Below the pieces are notes generated by a model. The model saw only the letters and a list, made by a program, of their open reading frames with translations. It was not told the origin of the DNA and made no database searches. This document shows positions 12,815 through 16,423 of a DNA stretch of 46,728 nt, one piece after another (position 1 is the first letter of the stretch; every line of letters begins with the position of its first letter). The position numbers and the translations under genes are program-made. The DNA is from a virus. Its lineage: Duplodnaviria; Heunggongvirae; Uroviricota; Caudoviricetes. The stretch is taken from IMG/VR virus record IMGVR_UViG_2568526103_000007; one strand, 5' to 3'.

Positions 12815-12842
12815 GGGGAGGGCTTAGCCCTCCCTCTTTTTA
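12815..12842. terminator. Bidirectional intrinsic terminator between the convergent adhesin and esterase genes
   Basis: GGGAGGGC-tta-GCCCTCCC perfect 8-bp GC-rich stem with T-run on the plus side and A/T-rich run on the other. Confidence 0.6.
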
Positions 12843-13096
12843 CAGGTTAGCGTTTGGGTTTTGTTGTTGGGGAGCTGTTTTTATAGGCGCTCCCAGGTTT
12901 TTAGTAAACCACTCAACGACTCTGTTTATAATAATTGGCTGATACCATGTCTTATCGCCATGCTCGGCCCCTTCTACCAGCACGTACTCAGCGTTATCAC
13001 CGTTCTTCTTCAACATCCTGAATAGTTTGGCGCTTTGCTCAGGTGAAACCAGAGTGTCTTTGCTACCATGCATAATAAGAAATGGGGGTTTTACTC
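12840..13096 (-). pseudogene. Secreted alpha/beta-hydrolase (HSL-type esterase), C-terminal fragment, separated from its 5' part by an IS66-family insertion
   Basis: Reading frame continues exactly across the IS: ...SPIGHMKG | VKPPFLIMHGSKDTLV...; the first ~11 codons of the annotated ORF (to 13136) are IS-derived. Confidence 0.75.
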
Positions 13097-13189
13097 CTTT
13101 CATAGTAAGCGTAAACTGACCGCCGTATGTAGCCATCAGACGAGAATTGGTAACTTAGACGCCCATCTGATATAGACGGACATCTAAGT

Positions 13190-13615
13190 ATGGAATTACA
13201 GGACTGGCGAAAAGAACCTCGTAAAAACTATTCGAATGAATTCAAACTTCGTATGGTGGAACTGGCATCACAACCTGGAGCTTGTGTTGCACAGATTGCA
13301 CGTGAAAATGGCGTCAATGATAATGTTATTTTCAAATGGCTCAGGCTCTGGCAGAACGAAGGGCGTGTTTCGCGGCGTCTTCCGGTAACGACCTCTTCTG
13401 ACACTGGCGTTGAATTATTACCTGTAGAAATAACGCCGGATGAGCAGAAAGAACCTGTGGCGGCCATTGCGCCGTCTTTATCCACTTCCACTCAGACCAG
13501 AGTCAGTGCCAGTTCCTGCAAGGTGGAATTCCGTCACGGTAACATGACGCTGGAAAATCCATCGCCAGAGCTGCTCACAGTGTTGATCCGTGAACTGACC
13601 GGGAGGGGAAGATGA
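13190..13615 (+). CDS. IS66 accessory protein OrfA (TnpA)
   Basis: 141-aa ORF with an HTH-like segment (PGACVAQIARENGVNDNVIFKWL); first ORF of the element. Confidence 0.8.
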   Translation: MELQDWRKEPRKNYSNEFKLRMVELASQPGACVAQIARENGVNDNVIFKWLRLWQNEGRVSRRLPVTTSSDTGVELLPVEITPDEQKEPVAAIAPSLSTSTQTRVSASSCKVEFRHGNMTLENPSPELLTVLIRELTGRGR

Positions 13616-13962
13616 TCTCACTCCCATCAGGTACCCGTATCTGGCTCGTTGCCGGCGTTACCGATATGCGTAAATCCTTCAACGGACTGGGAGAACAGGT
13701 ACAACATGTGCTGAATGATAATCCCTTCTCCGGTCACCTGTTTATCTTCCGTGGCCGACGGGGTGACACCGTCAAAATTCTTTGGGCTGATGCTGATGGT
13801 CTGTGCCTGTTCACCAAACGCCTGGAGGAAGGCCAGTTTATCTGGCCTGCGGTACGTGACGGCAAGGTATCCATTACCCGCTCGCAACTGGCAATGCTCC
13901 TCGATAAGCTGGACTGGCGTCAGCCAAAAACATCCAGCCGTAACTCACTGACAATGTTGTAA
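13612..13962 (+). CDS. IS66 accessory protein OrfB (TnpB)
   Basis: 116-aa ORF; MISLPSGTRIWLVAGVTDMRKSFNGL... is the conserved IS66 OrfB N-terminus; overlaps orfA by 4 nt. Confidence 0.85.
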   Translation: MISLPSGTRIWLVAGVTDMRKSFNGLGEQVQHVLNDNPFSGHLFIFRGRRGDTVKILWADADGLCLFTKRLEEGQFIWPAVRDGKVSITRSQLAMLLDKLDWRQPKTSSRNSLTML

Positions 13963-13992
13963 AAAACTCCTGACCGCATTATAAAAACGGTC

Positions 13993-15606
13993 ATGAGTCA
14001 GAAATACCTCATTCGCATCGCAGAGCTGGAAAGGTTGCTCTCTGAGCAGGCTGAAGCCCTCCGTCAGAAAGACCAGCAACTGAGTCTGGTTGAAGAGACG
14101 GAAGCCTTCCTGCGCTCTGCACTGACACGTGCCGAAGAAAAGATCGAAGAAGATGAACGGGAAATAGAACATCTGCGGGCTCAGATAGAAAAACTGCGCC
14201 GGATGCTGTTCGGTACCCGTTCTGAAAAACTGCGTCGTGAAGTTGAACTGGCTGAGGCTCTGCTGAAACAACGTGAACAGGACAGCGATCGTTACAGTGG
14301 GCGGGAAGACGATCCTCAGGTTCCCCGCCAGTTGCGACAGTCGCGCCATCGTCGTCCGTTACCGGCACACCTTCCCCGTGAAATACACCGCCTGGAGCCA
14401 GAAGAAAGCTGTTGCCCGGAGTGTGGCGGTGAGCTGGATTATCTGGGGGAAGTCAGCGCTGAACAGCTGGAACTGGTGAGCAGTGCCCTGAAAGTGATCC
14501 GCACAGAACGGGTAAAAAAAGCCTGTACAAAATGTGACTGTATTGTTGAAGCACCGGCGCCGTCCCGCCCGATAGAGCGTGGTATCGCGGGCCCCGGATT
14601 ACTTGCCCGCGTGTTAACGGGAAAATACTGCGAACATCTGCCACTGTATCGTCAGAGTGAAATCTTTGCCCGCCAGGGTGTCGAACTGAGCCGGGCCTTA
14701 CTCTCCAACTGGGTTGACGCGTGCTGCCAGTTAATGACACCGGTGAATGATGCCCTGTACCGTTATGTAATGAACACCCGCAAGGTTCACACTGATGACA
14801 CACCGGTAAAGGTACTGGCACCGGGTCAGAAAAAGGCGAAAACAGGGCGTATCTGGACGTATGTCCGGGATGATCGCAATGTGGGTTCGTCATCTCCTCC
14901 AGCGGTCTGGTTCGCGTACTCGCCGAACCGGCAGGGGAAACACCCGGAGCAACACCTCCGCCCCTTCCGGGGTATCCTGCAGGCGGATGCGTTCACAGGT
15001 TACGACAGGTTGTTCAGTGCAGAACGTGAAGGTGGTGCACTGACAGAAGTTGCGTGCTGGGCCCATGCCCGGCGAAAAATCCACGATGTATACATCAGCA
15101 GCAAAAGTGCGACGGCAGAAGAAGCCCTGAAGCGAATCAGTGAACTGTACGCCATCGAGGATGAAATACGGGGATTACCGGAGTCAGAGCGTCTTGCCGT
15201 CAGGCAGCAGCGAAGCAAAGTGTTACTGACGTCGCTGCATGAATGGATGGTGGAGAAGAATGGTACGCTGTCGAAAAAATCCAGACTGGGCGAAGCGTTC
15301 AGCTATGTACTGAATCAGTGGGATGCCCTCTGTTATTACAGTGATGACGGTCTGGCGGAGGCGGATAATAATGCTGCGGAAAGAGCGCTTCGTGCAGTCT
15401 GTCTCGGAAAGAAAAACTTTATGTTCTTTGGCAGCGATCACGGCGGCGAGCGTGGAGCACTGTTGTACGGGCTGATCGGCACCTGCCGTCTGAACGGTAT
15501 CGATCCGGAAGCGTATCTGCGCCATATCCTGAGCGTACTGCCGGAATGGCCTTCCAACCGAGTTGACGAACTCCTGCCATGGAACGTAGTACTCACCAAT
15601 AAATAA
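13993..15606 (+). CDS. IS66-family transposase (OrfC, DDE)
   Basis: 537-aa ORF with coiled-coil N-terminus, CxxC zinc-finger pair (CCPECGG ... CTKCDC) and conserved [25 protein letters not shown] / [10 protein letters not shown] motifs. Confidence 0.9.
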   Translation: MSQKYLIRIAELERLLSEQAEALRQKDQQLSLVEETEAFLRSALTRAEEKIEEDEREIEHLRAQIEKLRRMLFGTRSEKLRREVELAEALLKQREQDSDRYSGREDDPQVPRQLRQSRHRRPLPAHLPREIHRLEPEESCCPECGGELDYLGEVSAEQLELVSSALKVIRTERVKKACTKCDCIVEAPAPSRPIERGIAGPGLLARVLTGKYCEHLPLYRQSEIFARQGVELSRALLSNWVDACCQLMTPVNDALYRYVMNTRKVHTDDTPVKVLAPGQKKAKTGRIWTYVRDDRNVGSSSPPAVWFAYSPNRQGKHPEQHLRPFRGILQADAFTGYDRLFSAEREGGALTEVACWAHARRKIHDVYISSKSATAEEALKRISELYAIEDEIRGLPESERLAVRQQRSKVLLTSLHEWMVEKNGTLSKKSRLGEAFSYVLNQWDALCYYSDDGLAEADNNAAERALRAVCLGKKNFMFFGSDHGGERGALLYGLIGTCRLNGIDPEAYLRHILSVLPEWPSNRVDELLPWNVVLTNK

Positions 15607-15636
15607 GCGTCAATACGGTGCTCCGTTGACGCTTAC

Positions 15637-16423
15637 CTTTCATATGTCCGATTGGACTGGCGTTTAGCGCTTTTTCTTTTGACGCTGTGATGGGGGCTCC
15701 CGCAAAATTTCTGAATGCAGGGCCATTGATCATTAAGGCTTCGGTTACGGCAGGAGAGCGATGAACCTCCTGCACTGATTCAGGGAACCCCTCGCCAATA
15801 TTCAACAAGTCAGAAATCCCATAAAGTGTGGCAACTGCCTGAACATCTGAGGATTGCTGAAGAAAGTCACCTTTATCAAAGGTTTTGTCACCATTTGTAG
15901 TTCCCATCATCTGGGCAAGCCATCCACCGGCAGAGTCACCCAGAACTCCGATTCTTTGAGGATCAATCCCATAATTGCTGGCATGCTCTCTCAGGTAACG
16001 TATTGCAGCTTTTCCATCCTCAACTGGTGCTGGAAATGTATCAGGAATTGTTCTGTATTCTACAGCGGCCACAACAAAACCAGCTTCTGCCAGAGCCATT
16101 CTCATTTCAATAAATTTGTCATGTTCAGAAGACATGAATCCGCCGCCGGGATAATAAATAATGGCTGGTTTTAAATCATTTGTTCGCGGGACAAGAACTG
16201 ACATGTGAAGCTGTCTGACAGAACGAGTTCCTTTTATCTGGGAATAAACAACATCACCAATGAGATCGACCTGGTTTCTGGTCGGTGAAACACTAATGAT
16301 ATCTGCACCCGGGGTGTAACCAGGAAGATTAGTCTGGACAGGTGTTGCACAACTCCCGACCGACATGGCCATTGACATACCATACAATAGTGTTGCAGAT
16401 GATAATATCTTGTTAATTTTCAT
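15637..16423 (-). pseudogene. Secreted alpha/beta-hydrolase (HSL-type esterase), N-terminal 262 codons, interrupted by IS66
   Basis: Signal/lipoprotein-like N-terminus (MKINKILSSATLLYGMSMAMSVGSC), oxyanion-hole motif YYPGGGF and nucleophile elbow GDSAGG; the annotated ORF runs on into the IS for 14 codons before stopping. Confidence 0.8.

What the first reader, a model, noticed from the sequence alone, without database searches (positions are those of the whole stretch)
12840..16423. Secreted HSL-family esterase gene precisely split by an IS66-family insertion; the intact gene can be reconstructed
Convergent with the adhesin is an alpha/beta-hydrolase with signal/lipoprotein-like leader, HGGG-type oxyanion motif (YYPGGGF) and GDSAGG nucleophile elbow. 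Its reading frame is interrupted after ...SPIGHMKG by a 2532-bp IS66-family element flanked by a perfect 8-bp duplication (CTTTCATA) and resumes exactly after the second copy (VKPPFLIMHGSKD...). Removing the IS and one duplication copy restores a ~340-aa esterase. The intact target duplication suggests a recent insertion.
Basis: seen in the sequence. Interest (0 to 1): 0.5.

Follow-up and report, generated by a model that had tools for sequence, protein, structure and literature searches.

The report
ISEc23-split prophage esterase gene, insertion hotspot
A mobile element (ISEc23) has cleanly cut a lipoprotein esterase gene carried by an E. coli prophage, which is ordinary in itself, but the same 2-kb stretch has been hit independently at least 25 times by such elements in other E. 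coli strains, so it looks like a natural insertion hotspot.

Summary
Window 13105-15636 is a 2532-bp IS66-family element, which RefSeq names ISEc23. It has GTAAGCG... inverted repeats, tnpA/tnpB/tnpC and a perfect 8-bp duplication (CTTTCATA). In-silico excision restores a 1044-nt, 347-aa ORF. That ORF is 100% identical to an intact 'alpha/beta hydrolase' gene (WP_000700202.1), and the gene occurs in about 670 of 5426 complete E. coli genomes and in viable lambdoid phages.

The protein has a lipobox (Cys25). Its best family match is BD-FAE (PF20434), with Abhydrolase_3 (the HSL-like family) second. The insertion separates Ser164 from Asp276 and His308, so the gene is dead.

The exact allele is absent from the complete genomes. 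It is present in two NCBI draft assemblies, one of which is the source of the window.

The event itself is ordinary. The new point is that the locus is a recurrent target. I mapped 25 independent IS66-family insertions (24 ISEc23, 1 ISCro1), 23 of which have a verified 8-bp duplication of their own. They lie within 2.1 kb around the convergent ends of the adhesin and esterase genes, and 8 of them fall within 99 bp that include the window's site. Both orientations occur. The density is roughly 4-11 times that of control regions of the same prophage. Whether this reflects target preference or selection is unresolved.

The parts
12815..12835 (.). Bidirectional terminator-like hairpin between the convergent adhesin gene (stop at 12803) and esterase gene (stop at 12840). 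It lies near the centre of the wider insertion cluster.
   Evidence: Terminator scan found it on both strands. Mapped insertion sites lie on both sides of it.
12840..13104 (-). 3' fragment of the esterase gene, codons 261/263 to 347. It carries Asp276 and His308 of the predicted triad.
   Evidence: Peptidase_S9/BD-FAE C-terminal match.
13097..13104 (.). Left copy of the 8-bp target-site duplication, CTTTCATA.
   Evidence: There is a single copy in the empty site of strain 18044.
13105..15636 (+). ISEc23, an IS66-family insertion sequence of 2532 bp.
   Evidence: RefSeq annotation 'IS66-like element ISEc23 family transposase' on identical copies. 100% identity over 2532 nt to the copy in NZ_OZ039171.1.
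13105..13128 (+). Left terminal inverted repeat (GTAAGCGTAAACTGACCGCCGTAT).
   Evidence: 20 of 24 bases complementary to the right end.
13190..13615 (+). tnpA, accessory protein of 141 aa.
   Evidence: HTH_Tnp_1 5e-12. NCBIfam IS66_ISRel24_TnpA, 83 bits against a cutoff of 74.
13612..13962 (+). tnpB, IS66 Orf2-type accessory protein of 116 aa. It overlaps tnpA by ATGA.
   Evidence: TnpB_IS66 1e-36. NCBIfam IS66_TnpB, 121 bits against a cutoff of 50.
13993..15606 (+). tnpC, DDE transposase of 537 aa.
   Evidence: DDE_Tnp_IS66 9e-98 with zf-IS66, LZ_Tnp_IS66 and DDE_Tnp_IS66_C. NCBIfam transpos_IS66, 452 bits.
15613..15636 (+). Right terminal inverted repeat (...ATACGGTGCTCCGTTGACGCTTAC).
15637..15644 (.). 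Right copy of the target-site duplication, CTTTCATA.
15637..16423 (-). 5' fragment of the esterase gene, codons 1-263. It carries the lipobox (Cys25), the PGGG motif and the Ser164 nucleophile. As it now stands it reads on into the IS, giving a 276-aa ORF at 15593-16423 with 13 IS-encoded residues.
   Evidence: The exact 276-aa product is on record in two NCBI assemblies.

Best explanation
A copy of ISEc23 transposed into codon 263 of a 347-aa esterase gene and duplicated 8 bp of target. ISEc23 is an IS66-family element with tnpA, tnpB and the DDE transposase tnpC.

The esterase gene is a 'moron': an accessory gene of a lambdoid prophage. It sits tail-to-tail with an inverse-autotransporter adhesin gene, between the replication genes O/P and the ybcN-ninE-rusA-Q block. 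Its product is predicted to be a lipoprotein of the alpha/beta-hydrolase fold, with BD-FAE as the best family and HSL-like Abhydrolase_3 as the second.

The insertion separates the Ser164 nucleophile from Asp276 and His308, so the enzyme is inactivated. The event is evolutionarily recent and is confined to a small lineage.

It is not an isolated accident. The 3' halves of the two convergent genes are a recurrent target of IS66-family elements in E. coli, mostly ST131-type genomes. The window's site lies inside a 99-bp micro-cluster holding 8 independent hits.

Shown: the element, its boundaries, the duplication, the intact allele, the loss of triad integrity, and the independent insertions.
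Inferred: esterase activity and lipoprotein status, and that the clustering reflects target choice by the transposase rather than selection.
For: Element and restoration:
- Boundaries, inverted repeats, duplication and the restored ORF. Family assignments.
- The gene is found in 681 of 5426 complete E. coli genomes and at 80% or more coverage in 671 (635 records at 99% identity or more); the listed intact copies are annotated 'alpha/beta hydrolase', WP_000700202.1.
- The empty site is 100% identical over 2461 nt.
- The gene is intact, at 98.3% aa identity, in phages 4A7, Lambda_4C10, D2, 1W, 3W, Perceval and PhiR47_2.

Protein:
- The closest structures are 6nkf Lip_vut4 (1.6e-37, aligned across the junction), 6mly GH43-CE, and the acetyl xylan esterases 6xyc and 6tkx.
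- Lipobox and triad positions.

The allele:
- The exact junction is absent from the complete genomes and from the metagenome contigs.
- The exact 276-aa fusion ORF is in GCA_000492255.1, which is 100% identical to the window over 12.8 kb, and in GCA_048333465.1. The second assembly has an empty ISCro1 site, so the ISEc23 insertion is probably the older of the two.

The hotspot:
- 73 genomes carry ISEc23 at or next to the gene in the window's orientation, and 25 carry it in the other orientation.
- 22 other ISEc23 sites, each with its own perfect 8-bp duplication, plus one complex case and one ISCro1 insertion, map to empty-site coordinates 11272-13410.
- Controls built the same way gave 2 sites in the terminase/portal region. 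The AT-rich iss/TonB region gave 4 sites in one orientation and 3 in the other.
Against: - No experiment shows that the esterase is active or lipidated. The substrate is unknown, and no NCBIfam model reaches its cutoff.
- For the hotspot, the control densities come from only two regions of the same prophage. Distinct control sites in the minus orientation were judged from alignment spans alone.
- ST131 genomes are heavily over-sampled, and genome-wide ISEc23 site diversity could not be measured with these tools.
- The prophage as a whole also collects ISEc23 insertions, and other IS types hit the same genes: IS1 in AVS0051 and ISEc52 in strain 18044. Both observations fit tolerance of insertions in dispensable DNA.
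- AT-richness alone does not explain the pattern, because the most AT-rich bin has no hit.
- No strong target consensus exists. There is only a post-hoc 'TC' at duplication positions 7-8 (10 of 23 sites). That motif is absent from the window's own site and present in 1 of 5 control sites.
Confidence: 0.9

Rival explanations
1. The recurrent insertions reflect selection or tolerance rather than target choice. Either disrupting the prophage adhesin and esterase is neutral or advantageous in ST131-type hosts, or polar insertions between P and Q tame the prophage. On this view insertions land at random and simply persist here.
For: - Other parts of the same prophage also carry several independent ISEc23 insertions.
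- IS1 and ISEc52 hit the same two genes.
- About 14% of genomes that carry the gene have ISEc23 at the locus (73 plus 25 of 681).
- IS movement nested in ST131 prophages has been noted in general terms (PMC11739808).
Against: - Several insertions sit in the last 16-80 nt of either gene (sites 12722, 12741, 12766/7, 12856, 12878), where they barely change the products.
- None of the 11 esterase hits lies in the 5' 45% of the gene, and none lies in the 2.7 kb of dispensable nin genes that were also within the detection range.
- Eight hits fall within 99 bp, which is hard to explain by selection on gene function.
- The density is 4-11 times that of an equally dispensable, equally AT-rich moron region.
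Confidence: 0.3
2. The two hydrolase-like ORFs are separate or already decayed genes, the flanking 8-mers match by chance, and the IS arrived by recombination rather than by transposition into an intact gene.
For: None beyond the a-priori possibility. As annotated in related genomes, the fragments get different names: 'prolyl oligopeptidase family serine peptidase' and 'alpha/beta hydrolase fold domain-containing protein'.
Against: - Excision gives an ORF 100% identical to an intact gene present in hundreds of genomes and in phages.
- The flanks are 100% identical to the empty site.
- A chance 8-mer match at exactly the IS termini has a probability of about 1 in 65,000.
Confidence: 0.01
3. The IS at this position is an assembly artefact, a repeat collapsed or misplaced in the source assembly.
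For: IS66 copies are multi-copy repeats that often break or confuse short-read assemblies. The source, GCA_000492255.1, is a scaffold-level assembly.
Against: - A perfect target duplication is not expected from misassembly.
- The same IS-esterase junction occurs in an independent assembly, GCA_048333465.1, whose contig runs 91 nt into the IS.
- 23 analogous insertions are seen in complete genomes.
Confidence: 0.02

Closest known systems
ISEc23 (IS66 family; ISfinder name as used in RefSeq/PGAP annotation)
   Same: The length is 2532 bp and the termini are GTAAGCG... The element has tnpA, tnpB and tnpC with the IS66 domain set and an 8-bp target duplication. It is 100% identical to copies annotated as ISEc23.
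   Different: Nothing differs in the element itself. What is not described in the papers I could search is its repeated use of this prophage locus.
BD-FAE family (Pfam PF20434; bifunctional feruloyl/acetyl-xylan esterases of Bacteroidota PULs, PMC8165983) and PDB 6nkf Lip_vut4, 6mly, 6xyc, 6tkx
   Same: This is the best Pfam match (5.7e-45, nearly full profile) and these are the best solved relatives. The GXSXG elbow, the acid and the His are conserved in the 6nkf alignment.
   Different: The gene here is a prophage moron in E. coli with a lipoprotein leader and lies next to an adhesin gene, not in a polysaccharide-utilisation locus. The substrate is unknown, and no activity was tested.
Hormone-sensitive-lipase family (bacterial family IV esterases; Pfam Abhydrolase_3 PF07859)
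   Same: It has the GDSAGG elbow, a GGG oxyanion motif at the usual distance, and an Abhydrolase_3 match above the gathering score (81 bits against a cutoff of 25).
   Different: The motif reads PGGG, not HGGG. Abhydrolase_3 scores well below BD-FAE, and the NCBIfam HSL subfamily models score far below their cutoffs.
IS insertion hotspots in dispensable or prophage DNA of E. coli (for example IS movement nested in ST131 prophages, PMC11739808; IS629 in O157 prophages, from my own knowledge)
   Same: Many independent insertions of one IS family fall within a prophage of a clonal lineage.
   Different: The clustering here is much tighter: 25 events in 2.1 kb and 8 in 99 bp. It involves two IS66-family members in both orientations and is centred on the convergent 3' ends of two genes. 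No target rule is known for IS66-family elements.

Membership tests
IS66 family / ISEc23 | DDE transposase with the IS66 catalytic domain (TnpC) | tested here: met
   PF03050 9e-98, with PF13005, PF13007 and PF13817. NCBIfam NF033517, 452 bits against a cutoff of 180.
IS66 family / ISEc23 | Two upstream accessory ORFs, tnpA (HTH) and tnpB (IS66 Orf2), with tnpA and tnpB overlapping | tested here: met
   PF01527 and PF05717. NF047595 and NF033819 score above their cutoffs. The ATGA overlap is at 13612-13615.
IS66 family / ISEc23 | Terminal inverted repeats beginning GTAAGCG, and an 8-bp target duplication | tested here: met
   The same holds for 22 other ISEc23 copies at this locus and 5 at control loci.
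IS66 family / ISEc23 | Identity to the named element | tested here: met
   100% over 2532 nt to a copy annotated 'IS66-like element ISEc23 family transposase'. The ISfinder reference itself was not available.
IS66 family / ISEc23 | Transposition activity | not testable with these tools
   The evidence is indirect only: many polymorphic insertions, each with a fresh duplication, among near-identical genomes.
BD-FAE (PF20434) esterases | Profile match above Pfam's gathering score over most of the domain | tested here: met
   153.9 bits against a cutoff of 26.8; residues 80-290 cover profile positions 7-214 of 215.
BD-FAE (PF20434) esterases | Feruloyl or acetyl-xylan esterase activity | not testable with these tools
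   No assay is possible.
HSL family (family IV esterases, Abhydrolase_3) | HGGG oxyanion-hole motif | tested here: not met
   The sequence reads YYPGGGF at residues 90-96, with Pro in place of His.
HSL family (family IV esterases, Abhydrolase_3) | GDSAG-type nucleophile elbow | tested here: met
   GDSAGG at residues 162-167, nucleophile Ser164.
HSL family (family IV esterases, Abhydrolase_3) | Family profile as the best match | tested here: not met
   Abhydrolase_3 passes its cutoff at 81.3 bits but is second to BD-FAE. The NCBIfam HSL subfamily models score 32-55 bits against cutoffs of 380-430.
Alpha/beta-hydrolase catalytic triad | Ser-Asp-His in the canonical order | tested here: inconclusive
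   Ser164, Asp276 and His308 align with GDSSGG, HGDQDD and GAGH of 6nkf. This rests on sequence alignment only, with no structural model.
Bacterial lipoprotein | Signal peptide ending in a lipobox with an invariant Cys | tested here: met
   GMSMAMSVGSC fits the PROSITE PS51257-type pattern. Cys25 is followed by Ala at +2. Lipidation itself is not testable here.

The most novel reading that the evidence does not exclude
IS66-family transposases (ISEc23 and ISCro1) have a so far undescribed regional target preference. They are drawn to a feature of this locus. Candidates are the zone where two convergent transcription units meet at a bidirectional terminator flanked by phased A/T tracts, or a feature inside the 99-bp micro-cluster. 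There is also a weak oriented sequence bias, 'TC' at positions 7-8 of the duplicated octamer. If so, this prophage locus would be a natural, ready-made substrate for working out how this poorly understood three-ORF IS family chooses its targets.
Probability: 0.4. Interest if true: 0.55.

Novelty: new member of a known kind. Interest (0 to 1): 0.33.

Why it matters
Taken alone, the event is one more IS-disrupted accessory gene. Its practical use is as a lineage marker and as a correction to annotation: two 'hydrolase' fragments are in fact one dead gene.

The wider pattern matters more. How IS66-family elements select targets, and what their TnpA and TnpB accessory proteins do, is largely unknown. 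A 2-kb natural locus hit at least 25 times, with a 99-bp core, gives a defined DNA substrate for transposition assays.

It also shows that a prophage-borne adhesin/esterase pair in the pandemic ST131 lineage is being repeatedly knocked out. That bears on whether these morons are of any use to the host.

Tried and rejected
1. Orientation bias. The first ten other ISEc23 alleles showed 9 of 10 in the window's orientation, and I suspected a replication- or transcription-linked bias. A search with the IS reversed found 25 more genomes and 13 more sites, so the split is 10 to 14 and the idea is rejected.
2. AT-richness as the sole determinant. Target sites are slightly AT-richer than the surrounding territory (0.585 against 0.536, P about 0.007), but the most AT-rich bin has no hit.
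3. Attraction to IR-like sequences. The 9-mer GTAAGCGTA occurs at 12363 and at window position 17384, but the insertions do not abut it. I did not pursue this further.
4. Local hopping from a resident copy. Each mapped allele at the locus showed a single ISEc23 copy and its own duplication, and the window has the L005 site empty. This is unlikely.
5. Searching genome contigs for more ISEc23 ends gave only 2 loci, which was uninformative. The exact junction gave nothing in metagenome contigs.
7. Literature searches for ISEc23 or IS66 target preference, or for this locus, found nothing specific.
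Full report
**1. The observation**

- CTTTCATA occurs at 13097-13104 and again at 15637-15644.
- The 2532 bp between the two copies (13105-15636) begin GTAAGCGTAAAC and end GTTGACGCTTAC. Of the first 24 bases, 20 are complementary between the two ends.
- The element carries three co-oriented ORFs: 13190-13615, 13612-13962 (overlapping the first by ATGA) and 13993-15606.
- Their Pfam hits are HTH_Tnp_1, TnpB_IS66 (1e-36), and DDE_Tnp_IS66 (9e-98) with zf-IS66, LZ_Tnp_IS66 and DDE_Tnp_IS66_C.
- The NCBIfam IS66 transposase, TnpA and TnpB models are all passed.
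- RefSeq annotates identical copies as 'IS66-like element ISEc23 family transposase'. The copy in NZ_OZ039171.1 is 100% identical over all 2532 nt.

**2. Reconstruction of the gene**

Deleting 13105-15644 joins the two minus-strand fragments into one 1044-nt ORF of 347 aa.

- The gene matches 681 of 5426 complete E. coli genomes, and 671 of them carry it at 80% or more coverage. Of the matching records, 635 are at 99% identity or more, and many are at 100% with an intact ORF annotated 'alpha/beta hydrolase', WP_000700202.1.
- The reconstructed empty site is 100% identical over 2461 nt to O25:H4 strain 18044.
- The protein is also encoded intact, at 98.3% identity, by isolated lambdoid phages: 4A7, Lambda_4C10, D2, 1W, 3W, Perceval and PhiR47_2.

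**3. What the gene is**

The window is a lambdoid prophage.

- The integrase lies at 1-1143, a cI-like repressor at 5655-6410, and O/P at 7285-9002.
- A 1183-aa inverse-autotransporter adhesin lies at 9252-12803 (IAT_beta plus Big_1 repeats).
- The esterase gene converges on the adhesin gene across a bidirectional terminator hairpin at 12815-12835.
- Downstream come ybcN-ninE-ybcO-rusA-Q and the lysis and structural genes.

The esterase is thus a prophage moron. Family and structure searches gave the following.

- The best Pfam family is BD-FAE (PF20434, 5.7e-45). Abhydrolase_3, the HSL-like family, is second (1.1e-22).
- No NCBIfam model reaches its cutoff.
- The nearest solved structures are 6nkf (Lip_vut4, 1.6e-37, aligned across the junction), a GH43-CE bifunctional enzyme (6mly) and acetyl xylan esterases (6xyc, 6tkx).

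Sequence features:

- The N-terminus fits a lipobox, GMSMAMSVGSC, with Cys25 followed by Ala at +2.
- The oxyanion motif reads PGGG.
- The nucleophile is Ser164, in GDSAGG.
- Asp276 and His308 align with the acid and base of 6nkf.

The IS sits after nt 787, in codon 263. The Ser-bearing fragment now forms a 276-aa ORF with 13 IS-encoded residues, and it is separated from Asp and His. Loss of function is a safe inference. Esterase activity, substrate and lipidation remain inferences.

**4. Age and spread of this allele**

- No complete genome has the exact left junction. Only 4 records reach 80% coverage, and none of them is a contiguous match.
- The junction is absent from the metagenome contigs.
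- An exact-protein look-up of the 276-aa fusion ORF found two NCBI assemblies.
- GCA_000492255.1 is 100% identical to the window over 12.8 kb, so it is evidently the source.
- GCA_048333465.1 has the same ISEc23-esterase junction but an empty site where the window carries a second IS66-family element.
- That second element is ISCro1, at window 21494-24192 (2699 bp, duplication GATGGGAC). It interrupts a TonB-family gene.

The ISEc23 insertion is therefore probably the older of the two events. It marks a small lineage.

**5. The unexpected part: a recurrent target**

The search with IS plus gene returned 73 genomes that carry ISEc23 at or beside this gene, but at other positions. A search with the IS reversed returned 25 more.

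I fetched representatives and read their junctions. This gave 22 further ISEc23 insertions, each with its own perfect 8-bp duplication. There was also one complex case (L029) and one ISCro1 insertion (L014).

In empty-site coordinates, the sites are as follows. Minus signs mark the orientation opposite to the window's.

| Element | Sites |
|---|---|
| ISEc23, sites with their own duplication (the window's site included) | 11272, 11502-, 11679-, 11862, 12275-, 12522-, 12555-, 12609-, 12722, 12741, 12766, 12767-, 12856 (shared by about 60 ST131 genomes), 12878, 13020-, 13033, 13077-, 13085-, 13097 (the window), 13101-, 13110-, 13234, 13410- |
| ISCro1 | 13111 |

- That makes 25 independent events in 2.14 kb.
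- Eight of them lie within 13020-13118, and nine lie within 12522-12878.
- The orientation split is 10 to 14, so an early impression of orientation bias was wrong.
- These counts are lower bounds, because only the top 25-30 rows of each search were visible.

**6. Controls**

I built chimeric queries from 2 kb of another prophage region with ISEc23 placed in the middle, and scored them the same way.

| Region | Orientation | Genomes | Distinct sites |
|---|---|---|---|
| Terminase/portal | plus | 2 | 2 |
| iss/TonB moron (45% GC, equally AT-rich) | plus | 6 | 4 |
| iss/TonB moron | minus | 3 | 3 |

All five plus-orientation control insertions have their own duplications.

| Territory | Sites per kb |
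|---|---|
| Control moron | about 0.9 |
| Esterase detection territory (5.6 kb) | about 4 |
| 2.14-kb core | about 11 |
| 99-bp micro-cluster | about 60-70 |

With 5.2 events expected in the territory and 23 seen, the Poisson probability is of order 1e-8. This figure is my own arithmetic from the counts above.

Caveats:
- There are only two control regions.
- ST131 genomes are over-sampled.
- No genome-wide baseline could be measured. A published estimate of about 2000 structural changes of all kinds in 222 ST131 genomes (PMC11739808) suggests the locus is far above the genome average, but that is inference.

**7. Why here?**

- Target sites are slightly AT-richer than their surroundings (P about 0.007).
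- The A/T-tract density peaks at 12750-12900, beside the terminator. But the most AT-rich bin has no hit.
- In IS orientation, positions 7-8 of the duplicated octamer are 'TC' in 10 of 23 sites, against a background of 0.059. The post-hoc P is 3e-7, or roughly 2e-4 after allowing for the positions and dinucleotides scanned.
- That motif is absent from the window's own site and present in 1 of 5 control sites.

Some features argue against simple selection for gene loss:
- Several hits lie in the last 16-80 nt of either gene.
- No hit lies in the 5' 45% of the esterase gene.
- No hit lies in the 2.7 kb of dispensable nin genes that were within the detection range.

Other features fit tolerance of insertions in dispensable DNA:
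- IS1 and ISEc52 hit the same two genes.
- ISEc23 also hits other parts of the prophage.

I put target preference at about 0.4-0.6 and selection or tolerance at about 0.3. The two are not exclusive.

**8. Comparison with what is known, and verdict**

The element is ISEc23, and the event is a textbook IS66-family insertion. The gene is an annotated BD-FAE/HSL-like hydrolase of unknown substrate.

BD-FAE fits better than HSL, with PGGG in place of HGGG. The protein is more likely a lipoprotein than a freely secreted enzyme.

The papers I could search describe neither a target preference for ISEc23 or IS66 elements nor this locus.

As a finding it is ordinary and correctly read. The recurrent use of the locus is a modestly interesting, testable lead for how IS66-family elements choose their targets.

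Noticed in passing
window 21494-24192: A second IS66-family element, ISCro1 (2699 bp), carries its tnp genes on the minus strand and has a perfect 8-bp duplication, GATGGGAC. It interrupts a TonB-family (TonB_C) gene of the same prophage. The site is empty in strain 18044 and in GCA_048333465.1, and the exact junction is absent from 5426 complete genomes.
   Followed up: yes
L014 (NZ_OZ040274.1) 5010-7708; empty-site coordinates 13111-13118: In another E. coli genome, ISCro1 has inserted into the same esterase gene only 7 nt from the window's ISEc23 duplication. Two different IS66-family members therefore use the same micro-site.
   Followed up: yes
window 9252-12803: The inverse-autotransporter adhesin is 1183 aa here but 1421 aa (WP_022645049.1) in many ST131 genomes. 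BLAST of L006 shows internal repeats of about 350 nt (Ig-like Big_1 units), so the difference looks like repeat-number variation. In other strains the gene is cut by ISEc52 or ISEc23.
   Followed up: partly
23 ISEc23 target sites, empty-site coordinates 11272-13410: In IS orientation, the duplicated octamer ends in 'TC' in 10 of 23 sites (T at position 7 in 15 of 23, C at position 8 in 13 of 23), against a background of 0.059. This is a weak, oriented and post-hoc target bias. It is seen in only 1 of 5 control sites.
   Followed up: partly
window 12363 and 17384: The first 9 bases of the ISEc23 left end (GTAAGCGTA) occur twice on the plus strand outside the IS, on either side of the insertion cluster, where about 0.3 occurrences would be expected in the window. 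No insertion abuts them, and their meaning is unknown.
   Followed up: partly
L005 and about 60 other ST131 genomes; empty-site coordinates 12856-12863: A clade-wide ISEc23 insertion 16 nt before the esterase stop codon leaves a 343-aa ORF annotated as an intact 'alpha/beta hydrolase' (WP_029700859.1). The enzyme may remain functional there, with an altered C-terminus.
   Followed up: partly
window about 20540-20835 (minus strand): The prophage carries the iss/bor serum-survival lipoprotein gene (Lambda_Bor) next to the lysis genes. ISEc23 insertions also occur around it in other genomes (rzpD, lysozyme, the Q-holin spacer).
   Followed up: partly
H1, NZ_CP124429.1 (strain AVS0051): The same esterase gene is interrupted by an IS1-family element in this strain, a further independent disruption by an unrelated IS family. 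The site was not mapped.
   Followed up: no
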